NCBI GenBank assembly: GCA_009694965.1
Contig: SIBV01000001.1
Coordinates: 1-63,755 of the forward strand
Reading direction: 5' to 3'
DNA: 63,755 bases
From: Candidatus Zambryskiibacteriota bacterium
Lineage (GTDB): Bacteria; Patescibacteriota; Minisyncoccia; Phycocordibacterales; DATDWN01
In this document: one piece after another, positions 308 through 58,402 of the stretch
How positions within the stretch are numbered: the stretch's first letter is position 1
Layout: every line of letters starts with the position of its first letter
Made by a program: the position numbers and the translations under genes
The notes under the pieces: generated by a model
What the model saw: the letters and a program-made list of their open reading frames with translations, nothing else
The model's database searches: none
Told to the model about the DNA's origin: nothing

Positions 308-420
308 GTTGTATCGAGAGTATGGCGAGAGCAACTGGCTCAAGGACCCATCAGCAACCCTCAGAAATGAGAAGGTGCCAAATCCAGCCAAATAGCGAAA
401 GCTAAATGGAAAGATAAGAC
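308..420 (+). promoter_or_regulatory. SAM-I (S-box) riboswitch aptamer
   Basis: S-box conserved blocks in canonical order: TATCGAGAG / GGCGAGAG / ACTGGCTCAAGGACCCATCAGCAACC / GGTGCCAAATCCAGC / GAAAGATAAGAC; P1 pairs 308-315 with 413-420. Confidence 0.8.
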
Positions 421-20560: not shown

Positions 20561-21934
20561 ATGAAAAAAAACATTGTTCAAGATGTTATACCACCAAAAA
20601 AATCTATTCGTAATGTAGAATTGCCTTCTAGAATGCGTAAAAATCAACCAGTTGAAGAAGTAAATGTTAATGCTGGTTTTGAAAAGGTAGAGTCCGCTCG
20701 AAAGCCTCGTACTATTCATAAACAAACTGCCGAAATTCGACGCCCAAAGGAGGAGAAAATGGAACAATCCTATAAGTATGAGTACGACGGGCCTCCAAAA
20801 TCTTCAAAGAGAATCTTATACATAGCTGTTGGACTTTTTATCTTGGCTCTACTTTTCGGAATTTCAGCACTATTTCGAAGCGCGGAAATAAGAGTAACTC
20901 CAAAACAAGATTTCAAAACTTTGAACGAAACATTTGTTGCAAAAAAAGATTCTACAACTGGTCTTGCATACCAACTAGTCACAATCACAAAGGACGTGGA
21001 AAAGACGGTGGATGCTACTAGCGAGCAAAAAGTTGAAAAGAAGGCAACTGGAAGAATAATCATATATAACAATTCGGGATCTCAGGCACAGAAACTCGTA
21101 GCGACTACTAGATTTGAAACGGGAGAGGGATTAATTTTCCGTTTGATAAACAACGCTGTTATCCCAGGTCGCACAATAAAGGATGGTAAAACTATAGCTG
21201 GAAGCCTGGAAGTTCAAGTTGAGGCAGACAAAAGCGGAGAACTCTATAATATAGGACTCAAGGACTTCACAGTGCCAGGCTTTAAGGGAGACCCTAAATA
21301 TACTCAAGTGTATGCAAGATCAAAAACTATAATGAGCGGCGGTTTTTCTGGTATGCAAAAAGTAGTTTCGAAGGAAATTATGGATAGTGTTGAAGCGCAA
21401 TTAGAATCCGAGCTAAAGGAATCTTTGTCAAAGGATATGATTTCTCAAGTACCAGCAAATTTTGCACTTTATGAAAATAGCATCACATACAAACTAGAGC
21501 CAGTTATTCAGGGCAATGGCGCAAACGGTGTAGCTGTTATTAAAAGGAAGGGTGTTGCAAATGCTATAATTTTCGACAAAGGATCCTTGTCTAGAGTTAT
21601 AATCGCAAAAGTTTTACCGGAATCGACTGACAATGTAGTAAAAATAGTAAACCTTGATCAGTTGAACTTTACCTTCAGTACGAGTGAAGCTTTCAACCCA
21701 ACTACAAGCTCATCTGTCAGTTTTGAACTAAAGGGAGAACCTCATCTAGTTTGGGTCTTTGATGAAAACAAGCTTAAATCTGACTTGCTAGGCTTATCAA
21801 AGAAGAGTGCAAAAACGGTTATTAGGGCTTACCCAAATATCACAGAAGAGTGGGTTGAAATCTCACCTTTCTGGAATCAGACCATTCCAAACAACCCTGA
21901 AAACGTAAAACTCGTAAATACCTTGTCCCAATAG
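20561..21934 (+). CDS. conserved hypothetical single-pass membrane protein
   Basis: Basic N-terminus, one TM (ILYIAVGLFILALLFGISALF), large extracytoplasmic beta-rich region. Confidence 0.5.
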   Translation: MKKNIVQDVIPPKKSIRNVELPSRMRKNQPVEEVNVNAGFEKVESARKPRTIHKQTAEIRRPKEEKMEQSYKYEYDGPPKSSKRILYIAVGLFILALLFGISALFRSAEIRVTPKQDFKTLNETFVAKKDSTTGLAYQLVTITKDVEKTVDATSEQKVEKKATGRIIIYNNSGSQAQKLVATTRFETGEGLIFRLINNAVIPGRTIKDGKTIAGSLEVQVEADKSGELYNIGLKDFTVPGFKGDPKYTQVYARSKTIMSGGFSGMQKVVSKEIMDSVEAQLESELKESLSKDMISQVPANFALYENSITYKLEPVIQGNGANGVAVIKRKGVANAIIFDKGSLSRVIIAKVLPESTDNVVKIVNLDQLNFTFSTSEAFNPTTSSSVSFELKGEPHLVWVFDENKLKSDLLGLSKKSAKTVIRAYPNITEEWVEISPFWNQTIPNNPENVKLVNTLSQ

Positions 21935-21997
21935 TAGAATTTGGCATAGCACTAAAGTGCAGCAAGACCAGATGCCAAATTCACTATAGGATTAACC
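21932..21997 (+). repeat. family D REP-like hairpin, long form, copy D1a
   Basis: TAGTAGAATTTGGCAT-loop-ATGCCAAATTCACTATAGGATTAACC; begins in the stop codon of the upstream ORF. Confidence 0.8.
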
Positions 21998-26729: not shown

Positions 26730-26734
26730 AAAAC

Positions 26735-26760
26735 AGCCGGCCTGCGCCGGCTTTTTCTTT
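26735..26760. terminator. bidirectional intrinsic terminator
   Basis: AGCCGGC-CTGC-GCCGGCT followed by TTTTCTTT; preceded by AAAAC. Confidence 0.85.
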
Positions 26761-26811
26761 ACGCTTCGAAAACGGAGCTATGTTTTGTTAGCAAACAAAA
26801 CCAACGAGTCG

Positions 26812-26908
26812 GGGTGAGAAATGATGGGCATCACTTCGCAAGACCTTGCCTGATTTTTTCAGAATGAAATGAATGAAAAAGTCGACAAAATGTACTGTTC
26901 CTGTAAGG
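26812..26908 (-). repeat. family B structured repeat, copy B3 (inverted, with enlarged first hairpin)
   Basis: Reverse complement reads CCTTACAGGAACAGTACATTTTGTCGAC...CTGAAAAAATCAGGCAAGGTCTTGCGAAGTGATGCCCATCATTTCTCACCCC. Confidence 0.75.
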
Positions 26909-27009
26909 AAGAGAGAATTTGCTAGCGACGGCGAATAAAATATCCGTGACAAACGATAGAAAATCTCTTCCCAGAAGCGAAGCGTGCCACATTGGAGTAA
27001 ACTTTAATC

Positions 27010-27171
27010 ACACAATCTCTTTCTTACCAAAACCTTTTCAGAGACACAAAACCTGCCAGCGACGGTTTTGTTCTAGTCCTCGGTCGCAACTTGTCAAGAA
27101 AGGGTGCCTTGACGAGACCAGCTTGCGACCTGTGGATGCTCTGAAAAGGTTTTGGTTCGACGAGATTGTGT
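27010..27171 (+). ncRNA. candidate structured RNA N1 (three-way junction closed by a 28-bp interrupted helix); class unknown
   Basis: 27010-27019 pairs 27162-27171; 27026-27043 pairs 27139-27156 (18 bp perfect); inner hairpins 27046-27053/27064-27071 and 27082-27089/27123-27130 with 27090-27098/27108-27116; strand uncertain. Confidence 0.5.
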
Positions 27172-27187
27172 TAAGTGCCATCTTTAA

Positions 27188-27226
27188 TTTACTACAGTAT
27201 ATTGTAGTAGATTAGTATTTTTTCAA
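27188..27226 (+). terminator. hairpin plus T-run after candidate RNA N1
   Basis: TTTACTACA (27188-27196) pairs with TGTAGTAGA (27203-27211); T-run 27218-27223 after a short spacer. Confidence 0.4.
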
Positions 27227-27296
27227 GCATTCCTCCCTAATCAACAATAACAGATGTGTTTGTCAACAATTTTGAACCTCTTAATTTTTATGTTAA

Positions 27297-27431
27297 ACCC
27301 GCACACCAACTTTACTATAGTTTTTATACTCTGACTTACTGTAATTTCTTTATGTAAATTATGGCAAAAATGTTATAATAGTGATAATATCTTCTTGAAA
27401 AACAGAGTGATAGTAAAGTTGGTGTGCGGGT
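27297..27431 (+). mobile_element. family C MITE-like palindromic element, copy C1 (upstream of grpE)
   Basis: ACCCGCACACCAACTTTACTAT... and ...ATAGTAAAGTTGGTGTGCGGGT terminal inverted repeats; 135 nt. Confidence 0.8.
27371..27379 (+). promoter_or_regulatory. extended -10 box (TGTTATAAT) inside C1 facing grpE
   Basis: TGnTATAAT match about 66 nt upstream of the grpE ATG. Confidence 0.4.
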
Positions 27432-27444
27432 AAAATAGCTAAAT

Positions 27445-36683: not shown

Positions 36684-36704
36684 GAGGCGGTTTTGTTGTT
36701 TACT

Positions 36705-36776
36705 CCGTAGTAGATTTTGACATTGCTCGCTAATGCGAGCGAATAAAATCGATGTCAAAATTCACTACAGGGTTTA
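36705..36776 (+). repeat. family D REP-like hairpin, long form, copy D5
   Basis: CCGTAGTAGATTTTGACAT-loop-ATGTCAAAATTCACTACAGGGTTTA. Confidence 0.8.
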
Positions 36777-38336: not shown

Positions 38337-38352
38337 TTTCACTACCGGATAG

Positions 38353-38415
38353 CCTTGTAGTGAAGTTGGTATCAATTTTCAAGTACGAAGTACTATACCA
38401 AGTTCTACTACGAGG
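38353..38415 (-). repeat. family D REP-like hairpin, long form, copy D6
   Basis: Reverse complement: CCTCGTAGTAGAACTTGGTATA-loop-ATACCAACTTCACTACAAGG; immediately after the gltX stop. Confidence 0.8.
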
Positions 38416-38417
38416 CA

Positions 38418-46216: not shown

Positions 46217-46805
46217 TGGCGTCTCTTGTGTCCTCTATCACGTCTTTTTCCTCTTCTGTCTCTTCTATTACTTCCAATTGCTTCTGGACTTCCTTGTACT
46301 CAGGTAAATCTGAAATGTTGCCGAGCCCCAGAAACCTCAACGTTTCAGTTGTAATACTATACACTATGACCCTCTCTAGAGTCTCACTTCCTTTTTTTTC
46401 AACTAAACCACGTAAAAGCAGATTTCTCAGTGCGTATTGAGAGTTTACTCCTCTTATGTACTCTATTTCCTTTTTACTTACTGGACCTTTGTATGCCACA
46501 ATAGCCAGTGTTTCTATTCCAGCTCTTCCTAAGTCTCTTTCTCTCTCCTCTTTTATAATCTTTTCTATGAGACCTCCGAGCTCTGGAGACGTTACGAGAG
46601 ACACCTCATCGTTATGTCTAACAATTTTTATACCTCTATTTGAAAGTGAAGCCTCTATTTCGTTAATAGCATCCACGATATCTTCCCTTGGAACTTCAAG
46701 AGTTTTTACTAGAAATTTAATCTCCACAGGCTCAGCCAAGTAGAAAAGAATCGCCTCCACCCGCACACTAAGATTGCTATTGTTTTTTATATTCTGCTCA
46801 AGCAT
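46206..46805 (-). CDS. scpB: segregation and condensation protein B
   Basis: VEAILFYLAEPVEIKFL..., two winged-helix repeats; first about 15 codons are encoded by repeat C2, so a GTG start near 46763 is possible. Confidence 0.85.
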   Translation of the reverse strand: MLEQNIKNNSNLSVRVEAILFYLAEPVEIKFLVKTLEVPREDIVDAINEIEASLSNRGIKIVRHNDEVSLVTSPELGGLIEKIIKEERERDLGRAGIETLAIVAYKGPVSKKEIEYIRGVNSQYALRNLLLRGLVEKKGSETLERVIVYSITTETLRFLGLGNISDLPEYKEVQKQLEVIEETEEEKDVIEDTRDANGD

Positions 46806-46894
46806 AAAGATTTAAGTAAATTTTATTGAAAATGTTTTACTATGACTGATTTTATTTTGAAAAAACAGAATGATAGCAACCTTAGTGTGCGGGT
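46759..46894 (+). mobile_element. family C MITE-like palindromic element, copy C2 (spans the scpB start)
   Basis: ACCCGCACACTAAGATTGCTATTG... and ...AATGATAGCAACCTTAGTGTGCGGGT; 136 nt. Confidence 0.8.
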
Positions 46895-46924
46895 CTATTT
46901 TTTTTGTTAATTCATTCTGCATTT

Positions 46925-47706: not shown

Positions 47707-49152
47707 TTAACTACTTTTCTTTATGTTTATCCCCAATTCTAAAAGCTGCATTTCTGAAATTTCAGACGGCGAATCCATCATAAGGTCCTTTCCTTCTCCA
47801 GTTTTAGCAAAAGGAATAACTTCACGAATATTCGGCTCATTTTGTAAAAGCATAATCAATCTATCTAGTCCCCATGCGATTCCTCCGTGAGGTGGAGTAC
47901 CAAGTGAAAATGCTGCCATCATGTGTCCAAAGTTTTTTTGGATTCCCTCCAAACTATGTCCCATAATCTCGAATACTTTTTCCAAGGCTTTAGGATTATG
48001 ATTTCTAATACTTCCTCCCCCAATTTCCATTCCGTTTAAGGCCACATCGTATTGTGAAGTAAGAATTCCTCCAATATTTTCCTTGTTCATTAACCATTCT
48101 AGGTGTTCAGGCTTTGGCCTTGAAAAAGGATTGTGCGTAAATGTCCATGCTCCAGTATCTGTTTTTTCAAAGAATGGAAAATCAATAACCCAGCAAAAAG
48201 CCAAAAGATTTGGGTCTTCTTTGTTTTCTCTAACATCAGGCTTATCGGAATTATACTTTTCCATTGCTTCCTGATAAGTAAATCTAGGAAAAGGAATTTG
48301 TTGAATTTTCTTTTCTGGGTATAGTTTTGTAACCAAATCTATAAGCAACTTTTCGTTCAACTCTATAACATCTTCTCTTTTCACAAAACTCATTTCAAGG
48401 TCTAACTGAGTAAATTCTGGTTGTCTATCCCCTCTTGTATCTTCATCTCGCATACATCGAGCAATTTGGAAATACTTTTCCACCCCTCCTGTCATTAAAA
48501 GTTGTTTGTATTGCTGCGGGGATTGCGGAAGCGCATAAAACTTTCCAGGATAAAGTCTAGCAGGAACTACGTAGTCTCTTGAGCCTTCAGGGGTGGATTT
48601 TGTAAGTATAGGTGTCTCTACCTCGATAAAACTTTCTGTATCAAGAAAATCTCTAATAAATTTTATTACCTTGTGTCGATTGCGAATATTTTTCTGCATT
48701 CTGTCTGAACGCAAATCAACATACCTATATTTCAATCTTACTTCTTCATTTATTTCTCTTGTATCTCCTCCAATATCAAAAGGGATTGTGTATGATTTAT
48801 TCAAAACTTCAACATGCAAAATCTCAAGTTCAATATCTCCGTTTAAAACTCCAGCTTTAACATTTCTCTCCGGTCTTTTGTTTACTAAACCTTTAACTGA
48901 TAATACCCATTCAGTTCTAACGTCCTTTACTTGTTCAATCGCTTCAGGATGATTCGGTAAAACAACACATTGAACCTTGCCAGTCATATCTCGCATATCC
49001 ATAAAAACCATCTTTCCTTGGTCTCGACGGACATCCACCCAGCCAGATATCGTAATTTCTTCGCCAATATGGCCGCTCAAATCCTTTATATACACCCGCA
49101 CACCAATTTTGCCGTTGCTTTTACTGTCCTGTTTTGAAATAATTTCAGTCAT
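47707..49152 (-). CDS. aspS: aspartate--tRNA ligase, bacterial-type core without the GAD insertion
   Basis: LPQSPQQYKQLLM, CMRDEDTRGDRQPEFTQLDLEMSF, GGGSIR; DKPDVRENKEDPNLLAFCWVIDFPFFE where bacterial enzymes carry the GAD domain; first about 20 codons lie in repeat C3. Confidence 0.92.
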   Translation of the reverse strand: MTEIISKQDSKSNGKIGVRVYIKDLSGHIGEEITISGWVDVRRDQGKMVFMDMRDMTGKVQCVVLPNHPEAIEQVKDVRTEWVLSVKGLVNKRPERNVKAGVLNGDIELEILHVEVLNKSYTIPFDIGGDTREINEEVRLKYRYVDLRSDRMQKNIRNRHKVIKFIRDFLDTESFIEVETPILTKSTPEGSRDYVVPARLYPGKFYALPQSPQQYKQLLMTGGVEKYFQIARCMRDEDTRGDRQPEFTQLDLEMSFVKREDVIELNEKLLIDLVTKLYPEKKIQQIPFPRFTYQEAMEKYNSDKPDVRENKEDPNLLAFCWVIDFPFFEKTDTGAWTFTHNPFSRPKPEHLEWLMNKENIGGILTSQYDVALNGMEIGGGSIRNHNPKALEKVFEIMGHSLEGIQKNFGHMMAAFSLGTPPHGGIAWGLDRLIMLLQNEPNIREVIPFAKTGEGKDLMMDSPSEISEMQLLELGINIKKSS

Positions 49153-49229
49153 AATAATTTTATCAAATAATAAATTTTGTTGTTAGTTTTATTGAAAAAG
49201 CAGGATGACGGCAAACTTGGTGTTCGGGT
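49094..49229 (+). mobile_element. family C MITE-like palindromic element, copy C3 (spans the aspS start)
   Basis: ACCCGCACACCAATTTTGCCGTTGC... and ...GATGACGGCAAACTTGGTGTTCGGGT; 136 nt. Confidence 0.8.
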
Positions 49230-49377
49230 AAAGTTCGTTTACCGATTTTAAAATTCTAACACATTTATTATTTCAAACCAAACTAAGTATCACAATCATG
49301 TAGCCTAATAAGTATTGCTAACTAGCATCACTATAATCAACCTTATTCAATCTATCCTGTCTATTCCGTCAATTCCA

Positions 49378-49417
49378 TACTACACTAACTTCTACGACCG
49401 TAGAAGTTAGTGTAGTA
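49378..49417. repeat. perfect 18-bp-stem palindrome with GTAG-type heads
   Basis: TACTACACTAACTTCTAC-GACC-GTAGAAGTTAGTGTAGTA. Confidence 0.85.
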
Positions 49418-49487
49418 AAAGTTTTTAGTTAGTACTAGTAAAAAATTTACTGTAAACCGAATTCTTTTCGAATTTTTACATCATTTT

Positions 49488-49593
49488 CAAATTTAGATGA
49501 AATTCAAGGCGGATGAGGAAAATATAACGAGCCTTATAAGTATAAGGTGAGGATTATTTTACCGAAATCCAACAAAGAAGTTCGCTAAATTTG
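49488..49593 (+). ncRNA. family E long hairpin with k-turn-like apex, copy E2
   Basis: CAAATTTAG (49488-49496) pairs with CTAAATTTG (49585-49593); apex GGATGAGG...GCCTTAT-AAGT-ATAAGG-TGAGGA matches E1. Confidence 0.5.
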
Positions 49594-49598
49594 GATGT

Positions 49599-55295: not shown

Positions 55296-55778
55296 TTACT
55301 TCAATCCCTTACAGTTCTTTCCTGGGGTAAATCCGGCATCTTTCGCTTCTTCAATTGAAGCAAACTTTACTTGATTTTCGGGCTTTATTCTCTTAACAGT
55401 CCCACACCAAGGAAAGTAGTATTTTTTACCAGTTTTTGACCCTACAACAGCCCCATCCTTAGATCCAAGGACTCCCCTTGGATTGGTTGCTCCCACGTCT
55501 GGAAAACCGACTCCTGACTGTATTACGGCCCCAGTTTGTGAATTTGTTTGGCTTATTTGCTTATACTCTATTTTTATTGGTTTATGAGCCTCTTCTAAGG
55601 CAGAAATTCGCCCTAAGGCAAAGAAAATGAAGGCTACAGTTAGAATTACAAATAAATTGTAAAAGGGGTTGACCCAGTAGTGAAAAAAGGCATGGAACCC
55701 TGTTCGCTCCGTTGGAGCAATGCCTTTTTCTACTACGGGGTTGATTTTTTGAAGTATTTCCTTTATACTCATACTCAC
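55296..55778 (-). CDS. membrane-anchored protein with C-terminal Ada-like Cys-containing (sunset) domain
   Basis: One TM (LFVILTVAFIFFALG); C-terminus KKYYFPWCGTVKRIKPENQVKFASIEEAKDAGFTPGKNC. Confidence 0.6.
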   Translation of the reverse strand: MSMSIKEILQKINPVVEKGIAPTERTGFHAFFHYWVNPFYNLFVILTVAFIFFALGRISALEEAHKPIKIEYKQISQTNSQTGAVIQSGVGFPDVGATNPRGVLGSKDGAVVGSKTGKKYYFPWCGTVKRIKPENQVKFASIEEAKDAGFTPGKNCKGLK

Positions 55779-58186: not shown

Positions 58187-58330
58187 ATTGAACTCTATTG
58201 TCTCAATCCCGTTAGAGTTTTGCAAGCCCTACCTAATCAAATAATTAAAACGTAGAAGTTAAAACCTATATGAGCATCTTTCGTATAATCAAAAACTCTA
58301 ACGGGATCAAGAAACTACATTGTGGTCAAT

Positions 58331-58402
58331 CCGGTAGTAGAAGTTGGCATAGCACTAAAGGTGCATAAATATAAAATGCCAACTTCACTACGGGATTAAT
58401 CC
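58331..58402 (+). repeat. family D REP-like hairpin, long form, copy D7
   Basis: CCGGTAGTAGAAGTTGGCAT-loop-ATGCCAACTTCACTACGGGATTAATCC; loop start AGCACTAAAG shared with D1a. Confidence 0.85.

What the first reader, a model, noticed from the sequence alone, without database searches (positions are those of the whole stretch)
27297..27431. Family C: 135-136 nt MITE-like palindromes parked on the 5' ends of grpE, scpB and aspS
- The three copies are 27297-27431, 46759-46894 and 49094-49229.
- They have near-identical length and terminal inverted repeats of about 35-40 nt. These begin ACCCGCACACCAA and end TTGGTGTGCGGGT.
- They also share internal blocks such as TTGAAAAA.CAG..TGA.
- All three are in the same orientation on the plus strand, although two of the target genes are on the minus strand.
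- Each loop carries -10-like boxes pointing at the adjacent gene. C1 has TGTTATAAT. The gene-facing strands of C2 and C3 have TAAAAT.

This resembles Correia- or ERIC-type elements that donate promoters and RNase III substrates. I saw no clear target-site duplication.

Inference: a mobile or formerly mobile 5'-UTR cassette.
Basis: partly seen in the sequence, partly recalled or inferred. Interest (0 to 1): 0.62.

Follow-up and report, generated by a model that had tools for sequence, protein, structure and literature searches.

The report
Gene-less copies of GIY-YIG hairpin transposon
The three 135-base palindromes are gene-less copies of a tiny, apparently undescribed mobile element of ultra-small (Patescibacteria) bacteria, whose 300-base full form carries only a small nuclease gene; here they have landed in the promoter of grpE and in the first codons of scpB and aspS without killing those genes.

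Summary
The three copies are real and are the only ones in the window. All lie in one orientation.

- **Structure.** Each has a 22-bp terminal stem with invariant ends, CCCGCACAC...GTGTGCGGG, followed by two interleaved 5-7-bp helices and an AT-rich centre.
- **Target duplication.** It is identical on both sides in 61 of 116 copies, against 13 expected.
- **Distribution.** The family occurs across Patescibacteria: at stop codons, in -35 boxes, in start regions and inside 16S and 23S rRNA genes.
- **Full-length form.** Units of 288-316 bp carry the same ends and junctions and enclose a single 84-90-aa GIY-YIG nuclease gene. The 135-nt units are their miniature, gene-less derivatives.
- **Insertions, not leaders.** Close relatives have empty sites at all three window positions. 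C1 splits the -10 box of the grpE promoter. C2 sits in codon 10 of scpB. C3 sits in codons 4-5 of aspS.

Inferred, not shown: the nuclease moves the element, and -10 boxes and start codons inside the element now express the three genes.

The closest published parallels are the Ssn/NTS nuclease-hairpin systems and the uncharacterised short insertions in CPR rRNA genes.

The parts
27298..27430 (+). C1 element core (CCCGCACAC...GTGTGCGGG), a gene-less copy
   Evidence: 114 bits on +. The fold has a 22-bp stem, an 8-nt 5' bulge and a 7-bp helix.
27294..27297 (.). C1 left copy of the 4-bp target duplication, TAAA
   Evidence: It is identical to 27431-27434.
27431..27434 (.). C1 right copy of the target duplication, TAAA. 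With the next two bases it rebuilds the TAAAAT -10 hexamer.
27272..27277 (+). TTGAAC, the -35 box of the native grpE promoter, now cut off from its -10 box by C1
   Evidence: Relatives L168 and L169 have TTGAMC-N16-TGTTAAAAT-N9-ATG uninterrupted (N8 in the window's reconstructed site). The reconstructed empty site aligns with them.
27297..27318 (+). C1 5' arm of terminal stem S1 (22 nt)
   Evidence: Pairs with 27410-27431. Across 18 aligned copies, 96.5% of cells in the S1 stem are paired and 9 of the 22 pairs show changes on both sides.
27410..27431 (+). C1 3' arm of terminal stem S1
27320..27325 (+). C1 block a (GTTTTT), complementary to a' at 27398-27403
   Evidence: This is one of the interleaved helices.
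27327..27333 (+). C1 block b (TACTCTG), complementary to b' at 27403-27409
27398..27409 (+). C1 blocks a' (AAAAAC) and b' (CAGAGTG), which share one C
27373..27381 (+). Perfect extended -10 box TGTTATAAT in the C1 loop, facing grpE. Candidate replacement promoter.
   Evidence: My own estimate puts the chance of such a box in this loop at about 0.02. Its function was not tested.
46760..46893 (+). C2 element core, inserted in codon 10 of scpB (minus-strand gene)
   Evidence: (123 bits).
46756..46759 (.). C2 target-duplication copy TCCA (TGGA on the gene strand)
46894..46897 (.). C2 target-duplication copy TCTA (TAGA on the gene strand; this is the ancestral ATA-GAG context)
46898..46922 (-). Stranded native 5' end of scpB: ATG (46922) plus codons MQNELTKK and the start of the Ile codon
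   Evidence: Matches the N-termini of relatives (MKKNLSQQI-EAILF). Reading on through the element stays in frame for 138 nt and stops at TAA 46814-46812.
46803..46805 (-). ATG inside the C2 loop, 6 nt after that stop and in frame with scpB. Candidate present start codon.
   Evidence: GTG codons at 46766-46764 and 46760-46758 are alternatives.
49095..49228 (+). C3 element core, inserted in codons 4-5 of aspS (minus-strand gene)
   Evidence: (118 bits).
49091..49094 (.). C3 target-duplication copy TACA (TGTA on the gene strand)
49229..49232 (.). C3 target-duplication copy TAAA (TTTA on the gene strand)
49150..49165 (-). TGATAAAAT-TATT-ATG in the C3 loop on the aspS strand: an extended -10 box 4 nt before an ATG in frame with aspS
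   Evidence: The native start position now reads GTA.

Best explanation
**Shown**
- C1-C3 are non-autonomous, MITE-like copies of a Patescibacteria-wide mobile element.
- The element is bounded by CCCGCACAC...GTGTGCGGG ends that pair in an 18-24-bp stem.
- Its full-length form (288-316 bp) encodes one protein only, an 84-90-aa single-domain GIY-YIG nuclease lying in the loop.
- Both forms sit between 4-bp direct duplications of a preferred TNNA target.
- All three window copies are insertions absent from close relatives:
  - C1 is in the -10 box of the grpE promoter.
  - C2 is in codon 10 of scpB.
  - C3 is in codons 4-5 of aspS.

**Inferred**
1. The GIY-YIG nuclease, supplied in trans, is the mobilising enzyme.
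   - It recognises the ends as a folded hairpin or cruciform rather than as plain duplex. The 12 variable stem positions always stay complementary.
   - The interleaved a-b...a'-b' blocks let either strand fold into the same shape: a 22-bp stem, then a 5' bulge, then a short helix.
2. The target is opened with a 4-nt stagger and filled in, which gives the duplication.
3. The hit genes survive because the duplication keeps a copy of the target on each side. It rebuilds stop codons, TTGACA boxes and the TAAAAT box of grpE.
4. The AT-rich loop also provides a -10 box and an ATG or GTG that read through the 3' arm into the gene. scpB and aspS thereby gain new 16-19-residue N-termini.
For: **Family and ends**
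- 65 of 117 pattern hits in species-representative genomes have at least 20 of 24 terminal pairs. Apart from one GC-rich outlier (L106, left out of later analyses), they lie in low- or mid-GC records labelled almost entirely Patescibacteria. The remaining hits are chance matches in GC-rich genomes.
- In 18 aligned copies 96% of cells are paired and 13 pairs show changes on both sides; none of 500 shuffles reached this.
- Interleaved helices of at least 5 Watson-Crick bp each occur together in 60% of 67 copies, against 0.75% of shuffles. Nested extension of the stem is absent.

**Target duplication**
- The flanking 4-mers are identical in 61 of 116 copies, against 13.4 expected and a maximum of 24 in 2000 shuffles.
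- This includes non-TNNA cases: TTTG, CTTG, CAGG, AAAA and ATAA.
- Tandem copies share exactly one 4-mer.

**Full-length units**
- L116, L124/125, L130, L134/146, L141, L147, L153, L160/161 and L163 carry the same ends and junctions around one PF01541-only ORF.
- At least 1178 protein clusters of this nuclease were found.
- The gene lies in different loci in different genomes.
- It lies next to gene-less copies in at least 16 loci.

**rRNA genes**
Copies lie inside 16S and 23S rRNA genes.

**Empty sites**
L164, L168 and L169 lack the element at the corresponding positions.

**Start-codon supply**
23 of 40 outward ORFs are in the GTG-CGG-GTN frame, for example rpiB, iscS and ligA.

**Fixed in the population**
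All three copies are present in five freshwater metagenomes.
Against: - No biochemical or genetic evidence shows that the nuclease cuts these ends or moves anything.
- GIY-YIG enzymes are not known transposases. A bare nuclease cannot by itself explain strand joining.
- No GIY-YIG gene lies in this window.
- No polymorphic (empty) alleles were seen in the population, so there is no sign of current activity here.
- 55 of 116 copies lack a perfect 4-bp repeat.
- Extended -10 boxes are not enriched across the family.
- No RNA data exist for transcription starts or processing.
- The nuclease could instead be a domesticated or passenger gene, as is argued for Ssn/NTS.
Confidence: 0.72

Rival explanations
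1. Domesticated nuclease-plus-hairpin system, in the manner of Ssn/NTS. The hairpins would be host-maintained recognition sites for a single-stranded-DNA GIY-YIG nuclease that controls incoming or replicating ssDNA. Their spread would be a by-product, and the copies at grpE, scpB and aspS would be neutral passengers.
For: - The gene-between-hairpins layout and the many dispersed hairpins match the published Ssn/NTS picture.
- The nuclease is strongly conserved, 70-90% identity across more than 100 clusters.
- The window copies are fixed in the population.
Against: - Insertions disrupt a promoter and two essential coding regions and sit inside rRNA genes. Host-selected sites would not be expected to do this.
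- The clean 4-bp duplications and the tandem nesting are marks of insertion.
- The ends do not match the NTS/SRM consensus quoted in the paper.
- The nearest solved structures are UPF0213 proteins.
Confidence: 0.15
2. Ordinary MITE moved by an unseen conventional transposase. The GIY-YIG gene would be cargo that happened to be captured between two ends.
For: - 4-bp duplications and inverted ends are typical of DDE elements.
- No enzymology links GIY-YIG nucleases to integration.
Against: - At least 10 independent 288-316-bp units contain nothing but the nuclease ORF, which starts 17-44 nt from one end.
- No other ORF recurs next to the copies.
- Strict complementarity of the variable stem positions is not expected for protein-bound duplex ends.
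Confidence: 0.08
3. Conserved cis-regulatory RNA leader, for example a thermosensor or a translational-coupling hairpin, shared by grpE, scpB and aspS.
For: - The stem is stable and covaries.
- The start codon lies in the 3' arm.
- One of the genes encodes a heat-shock protein.
Against: - Orthologous sites in close relatives are empty.
- The same element lies after stop codons between convergent genes and inside rRNA genes.
- No Rfam family matches.
Confidence: 0.03

Closest known systems
Ssn single-domain GIY-YIG ssDNA nucleases with NTS/SRM hairpin repeats (Chenal et al. 2025, Nat Commun, PMC11893778)
   Same: - A roughly 90-aa GIY-YIG-only protein whose gene is flanked by its own hairpin repeat.
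- The repeat is also dispersed in many gene-less copies.
- The authors themselves note that the layout looks like an insertion sequence.
   Different: - Here the two arms pair with each other around the gene in an 18-24-bp stem, instead of forming separate ~30-nt hairpins.
- The ends are CCCGCACAC/GTGTGCGGG, not the NTS/SRM consensus.
- Copies carry 4-bp TNNA duplications and sit inside genes and rRNA.
- The host group is Patescibacteria.
- The protein's nearest solved relatives are UPF0213 proteins. Membership of cd10448 could not be tested.
Bacterial MITEs such as Correia/NEMIS (Neisseria) and ERIC (enterobacteria)
   Same: - About 130 bp, inverted ends, no coding capacity, short target duplication.
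- They land at gene boundaries, and their transcripts can fold into long hairpins. These properties of the named families are from my own knowledge.
   Different: - There is no sequence likeness to either family.
- The target is TNNA with a 4-bp duplication, not TA.
- The partner gene is a GIY-YIG nuclease, not a DDE transposase.
- The interior carries interleaved helices.
RNase III-excised intervening sequences (IVS) of 23S rRNA, and the 'uncharacterized short ISs' and non-intron GIY-YIG insertions of CPR rRNA genes (Tsurumaki et al. 2024, PMC11270868)
   Same: - Family members sit in 23S rRNA at the helix-25 and helix-45 regions and in 16S rRNA near position 205. They are under 200 bp and are not group I or II introns.
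   Different: - That paper did not define the ends, the duplication, the stem or the link between the short insertions and the GIY-YIG units.
- The window copies are in a promoter and in protein-coding genes, not in rRNA.
- RNase III processing is untested.
REP/BIME repeats with RAYT (IS200/IS605-like) enzymes
   Same: Dispersed structured palindromes tied to one small enzyme gene that is flanked by the same repeat. Recognition of a hairpin in single-stranded DNA is probably involved.
   Different: - The enzyme class differs: GIY-YIG here, a HUH tyrosine enzyme there.
- REP and IS200/IS605 elements leave no target duplication (my own knowledge). These copies do.

Membership tests
MITE (miniature inverted-repeat transposable element) | Small, non-coding, with terminal inverted repeats | tested here: met
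   134-nt cores and a 22-bp terminal stem. No ORF belongs to the element itself.
MITE (miniature inverted-repeat transposable element) | Target-site duplication | tested here: met
   4-bp duplication, identical in 61 of 116 copies against 13 expected. Window: TAAA/TAAA, TCCA/TCTA, TACA/TAAA.
MITE (miniature inverted-repeat transposable element) | Presence/absence at orthologous sites | tested here: met
   Relatives L164, L168 and L169 are empty at all three sites.
MITE (miniature inverted-repeat transposable element) | A longer coding element with the same ends | tested here: met
   At least 10 units of 288-316 bp carry the same ends and junctions. The enzyme is a GIY-YIG nuclease, not a known transposase.
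MITE (miniature inverted-repeat transposable element) | Mobilisation by the partner enzyme | not testable with these tools
   Needs biochemistry or a transposition assay.
Ssn / NTS-SRM system | Single-domain GIY-YIG protein of about 90 aa | tested here: met
   84-90 aa, with PF01541 as the only clear domain.
Ssn / NTS-SRM system | Protein belongs to CDD family cd10448 | not testable with these tools
   No CDD library is available here. The best solved relatives are UPF0213 proteins 1zg2 and 1ywl.
Ssn / NTS-SRM system | Repeat matches the NTS/SRM consensus (CGTCATTCCCGCG...GCGGGAATC) | tested here: not met
   The ends are CCCGCACAC/GTGTGCGGG with a 22-bp stem, compared with the consensus quoted.
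Ssn / NTS-SRM system | Nuclease gene flanked by its repeat | tested here: met
Ssn / NTS-SRM system | Site-specific cleavage of ssDNA next to the hairpin | not testable with these tools
   Needs enzyme assays.
23S rRNA intervening sequence (IVS) | Stem-loop insertion at exposed rRNA helices | tested here: met
   Met for family members: L007 23S near E. coli positions 540-668 and 1165-1185, L018 near 844, and L066/L074 16S near 205. The window copies are not in rRNA.
23S rRNA intervening sequence (IVS) | Removal by RNase III without ligation | not testable with these tools
   No RNA runs are available for this organism.
Correia / ERIC elements | Family-specific end sequences and a TA target (Correia) | tested here: not met
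   The ends and the target found here are CCCGCACAC/GTGTGCGGG and a 4-bp TNNA duplication. The Correia end sequences and TA target are recalled from my own knowledge; no direct sequence comparison with Correia or ERIC was run.
Group I / group II intron or any Rfam RNA family | Match to a curated covariance model | tested here: not met
   At gathering score the only match in the window is a SAM riboswitch elsewhere. In E-value mode there are only far sub-threshold plant miRNA hairpin matches.
Integron attC site | R''/R' core sites (RYYYAAC/GTTRRRY) and a fully nested bottom-strand hairpin | tested here: not met
   The ends differ, and the inner helices are interleaved rather than nested. The attC consensus is from my own knowledge.

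The most novel reading that the evidence does not exclude
The ~300-bp unit would be an autonomous transposon of a new mechanistic class, and the smallest known.
- Its only protein is an 84-aa GIY-YIG nuclease.
- The nuclease would recognise the element as a folded hairpin or cruciform. The interleaved inner helices make both strands adopt the same asymmetric shape.
- It would cut TNNA targets with a 4-nt stagger.

Its 135-nt derivatives would be compact enough, and carry enough signals, to persist inside promoters, start regions of essential genes and rRNA genes of genome-reduced bacteria.
Probability: 0.45. Interest if true: 0.9.

Novelty: new variant of a known kind. Interest (0 to 1): 0.7.

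Why it matters
- It would give a mechanism and a name to part of the unexplained short insertions in CPR rRNA genes.
- It would add a nuclease-only enzyme class to the known ways in which DNA elements move.
- It would show how essential genes in tiny genomes survive direct hits on their promoters and start codons, by taking new -10 boxes, start codons and N-termini from the invader.
- It affects gene calling in Patescibacteria. Start codons, N-termini and 'intergenic spacers' are routinely mis-set around these elements. Here, for example, scpB and aspS are called with element-encoded N-terminal extensions.

Tried and rejected
2. **Conserved leader, thermosensor or translational-coupling hairpin.** Rejected because of the empty sites and the rRNA contexts.
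3. **2-bp duplication or 2-bp serine-recombinase crossover.** This was my first reading (T-NN|E|NN-A). It was replaced by a 4-bp duplication once copies whose first or last base is not A or T were examined: TTTG/TTTG, CAGG/CAGG and others.
4. **Classical H-type pseudoknot, or an HDV- or twister-like ribozyme.**
   - The linkers between the interleaved helices are 0-3 nt and the two helices share bases.
   - There is no conserved core outside the stem, and no Rfam match.
   - I read the blocks as alternative, strand-symmetric helices. This is unproven.
5. **Integron attC site.** The ends and the topology do not fit.
6. **Family-wide built-in promoter.** Not supported. The consensus promoter scans are only weakly above shuffles.
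7. **Population polymorphism.** No contig skips any of the three copies in four of the five metagenomes that hold the window, X1 and X3-X5.
8. **RNA evidence.** No RNA runs are available.
9. **A 'KRT' frame match upstream of C3.** It suggested a frameshift. The in-frame reading (VNEL|YIKDL) fits a clean 138-nt insertion instead.
10. **Literature.**
    - Five word searches (on GIY-YIG with MITEs, inverted repeats and transposons; Patescibacteria repeats; CPR rRNA insertions) and one search for the end sequences were run.
    - None returned a description of this family.
    - One paper holding both end sequences was a chance match in phiC31 primers.

Full report
**Observation**

- The 10-mer ACCCGCACAC or its complement, with up to one mismatch, occurs 7 times in the window against 0.74 expected. 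Six of those are the ends of the three copies.
- Each copy folds far better than its shuffles, z = -7.4 to -9.0.
- A covariance model built from 18 related copies (R1) was scored over the whole window without filters. It finds exactly these three, all on the + strand: 114-123 bits, against 70-73 bits for the reverse strand.
- Rfam has no family for them.

**Anatomy**

- The nested inverted repeat is 22 bp. The first 10 bp are invariant. The next 12 vary between copies but stay complementary.
- In an alignment of 18 copies, 96% of cells pair. Thirteen pairs carry changes on both sides, and none of 500 shuffles reached this.
- Past the stem the arms do not continue as a hairpin. The left arm reads a-b and the right arm a'-b', so two complementary pairs stand in interleaved order.
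- Both pairs reach at least 5 Watson-Crick bp in 60% of 67 copies from many genomes, against 0.75% of shuffles. Nested continuation is absent.
- The block sequences differ completely between subfamilies, for example GCTTTTT/ATTCTGC, GTGTTTT/GTTGCAA and TGCAAG/GTTGTTCC. Pairing, not sequence, is what is kept.
- Because a' and b' abut and share bases, I read them as alternative helices. They let either strand fold as a 22-bp stem, then a 5' bulge, then a short helix. All three + strand folds and two of the three - strand folds show this shape. This reading is an inference.

**Distribution**

- One scan of species-representative genomes for the two ends 100-130 nt apart gave 113 loci.
- 65 elements have at least 20 of 24 terminal pairs. 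Apart from one GC-rich outlier (L106, which I left out of the later analyses), they lie in low- or mid-GC records. Those records are labelled Saccharibacteria, Paceibacterota, Nomura-, Campbell-, Kaiser-, Moranii- and Andersenbacteria, apart from a few records with other labels (L021, L043).
- The rest of the hits are chance matches in GC-rich genomes.
- Model R1 found many further, more diverged copies and clusters in those loci. Short 49-72-nt forms with the same ends also turned up.

**Junctions**

- With the element defined as CCCGCACAC...GTGTGCGGG, the flanking 4-mers are identical in 61 of 116 copies, against 13.4 expected and a maximum of 24 in 2000 shuffles.
- The preferred target is TNNA: TAAA 20, TTTA 19, TTGA 7, TATA 4, TCAA 3.
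The duplication is therefore 4 bp, not 2.
- Tandem copies share exactly one 4-mer.
- This target preference explains three recurrent contexts:
  - Many copies abut a TAA stop codon, for example of rpsG, polA, uvrA, uvrB, dnaE and pheT.
  - Ten copies lie in TTG|..|TGACA and so rebuild a TTGACA box.
  - 23 of 40 outward ORFs start in the frame GTG-CGG-GTN supplied by the 3' arm, for example rpiB, iscS and ligA.

**rRNA genes**

- Copies lie inside rRNA genes:
  - four in one 23S gene (L007), with a fifth just upstream in its 5' leader;
  - one in another 23S gene (L018);
  - one at the same 16S position in two genomes (L066, L074).
- The sites map near E. coli 23S positions 271-369, 540-668, 930, 1165-1185 and 844, and near 16S position 205.
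- Tsurumaki et al. 2024 list 'uncharacterized ISs', mostly under 200 bp, in CPR rRNA genes. They also report GIY-YIG proteins only in insertions that are not introns. They do not define a family.

**The coding form**

- A small GIY-YIG gene (PF01541 only) lies within 500 nt of a copy in at least 16 loci, often with copies on both sides.
- Homologues picked by protein similarity alone sit in different loci: rpsG-fusA, secA-murB, secA-LMWPc and PEMT-dsbB.
- In L116 the ORF lies exactly between TAAA|CCCGCACACTTACTTTTTT and AAAAAAGTAAGTGTGCGGG|TAAA.
- A metagenome scan for the two ends 268-298 nt apart returned further clean units, bringing the total with L116 to at least 10. They are 288-316 bp long, with an 18-24-bp stem and one 84-90-aa GIY-YIG ORF starting 17-44 nt from one end. 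Their junctions are the same, for example TAAA, TATA and TCCA.
- The 135-nt units are therefore gene-less derivatives of this unit.

**The three window copies are insertions**

- *scpB and aspS.* A relative with 79% identical ScpB (L164) has aspS-scpA-scpB contiguous, with gaps of 5 nt and 1 nt. Model R1 finds no element there.
- *grpE.* Relatives with 77-80% identical GrpE have an intact promoter, TTGAMC-N16-TGTTAAAAT-N9-ATG (N8 in the window's reconstructed site).
- Joining the window flanks with one copy of the duplication gives sequences collinear with these relatives.
- *C1* sits in the -10 hexamer of the grpE promoter. Its right junction rebuilds TAAAAT, but the -35 box is now 137 nt farther from it.
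- *C2* sits in codon 10 of scpB.
  - The native ATG (46922) and the codons MQNELTKK survive upstream.
  - The insertion is 138 nt and in frame. It contains one TAA stop, followed 6 nt later by an ATG (46805) that reads through the 3' arm into scpB.
- *C3* sits in codons 4-5 of aspS. The native start position now reads GTA. An in-frame ATG (49152) lies 4 nt after a TGATAAAAT box in the loop.
- The same organism occurs in five freshwater metagenomes. In the four I laid on these stretches, all three copies are present and no contig skips one.

**How it most likely works**

The element's structure, its duplication, its coding relative and the insertions are shown. The remaining steps are inferred.
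- The nuclease moves both forms.
  - For: nothing else is encoded, and no other ORF recurs next to the copies.
  - For: kept complementarity points to recognition of a folded strand. That is the mode shown for the related single-domain Ssn nucleases, which cut ssDNA beside their hairpin.
  - Against: no GIY-YIG enzyme is known to integrate DNA, and strand joining is unexplained.
- The hit genes are probably now expressed from signals inside the loop.
  - C1 carries a perfect TGTTATAAT facing grpE. I estimate about a 2% chance of that in such a loop.
  - Genes in this clade have an 8-9-nt gap between the -10 box and the ATG, so their mRNAs are almost leaderless. That fits C3's box-plus-ATG arrangement.
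  - Extended -10 boxes are not enriched across the family, so these would be copy-specific adaptations.

**Known relatives and novelty**

- The closest published system is Ssn/NTS.
- The element behaves as a MITE, and in rRNA it resembles an IVS.
- It fails the sequence tests for NTS/SRM and for Rfam families. The Correia, ERIC and attC comparisons rest on consensus features recalled from my own knowledge.
- Five word searches and one search for the end sequences in the held library found no description of the family.
- Earlier notes of this scan reach the same family in other genomes. I reached the coding form before reading them. From them I took only the pointer to the Ssn paper.

Noticed in passing
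window 36702-36773 and 55672-55741 (also 38351-38417, 58328-58397, 21925-21992): These ~70-nt 'family D' hairpins share the design of this family: 22-nt arms ending ...CAT/ATG..., ends of the form ACyC.GTAG...CTAC.GGGT, and junctions TTT|..|TTA and TTG|..|TGA. They are probably a sister family that uses the same insertion mechanism.
   Followed up: partly
window 27272-27444; L168 140-185; L169 2455-2500: The grpE promoter is conserved among relatives as TTGAMC-N16-TGTTAAAAT, with only 8-9 nt between the -10 box and the ATG and no Shine-Dalgarno sequence. grpE mRNA in this clade is therefore probably almost leaderless.
   Followed up: partly
window 49233-49598, compared with L164 105-1892: The relative has a 595-aa ABC-ATPase gene between trpS and aspS. 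In the window that gene is missing, and the 370-nt spacer holds only hairpin repeats.
   Followed up: no
L007 1780-7385: This 23S rRNA gene is stretched to 5.6 kb. It holds four hairpin copies and a group I intron (2656-2906), and a fifth copy lies in the 5' leader.
   Followed up: partly
L025, L053, L087, L016, L012, L064, L115 (rpsG-fusA spacer): The rpsG-fusA junction is a recurrent landing zone. It holds up to four copies, a GIY-YIG gene on the opposite strand, and small orphan ORFs of 71-94 aa with no Pfam match.
   Followed up: partly
L053 ~2765-2805, and the corresponding stretch of L104 and L042, between the GIY-YIG stop codon and the next copy: A 28-nt mini-palindrome, CCCTGACACTTATACATAAGTGTCAGGG, resembles two element ends joined head to head. 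It may be a collapsed copy or a footprint.
   Followed up: no
L116 1693-1749: A 49-nt mini-copy with a perfect TATA/TATA duplication lies in the first codons of a PEMT-family gene. It is 1.2 kb from a full-length nuclease unit that has nearly the same stem.
   Followed up: no
window 308-420: SAM riboswitch (RF00162, 56.6 bits). It was the only Rfam match in the window at gathering score.
   Followed up: no
window 26730-27293: The 560-nt stretch between rpsI and C1 has no convincing ORF and no Rfam match. The relative L169 also has a long rpsI-grpE spacer (866 nt), with a 93-aa ORF on the minus strand.
   Followed up: no
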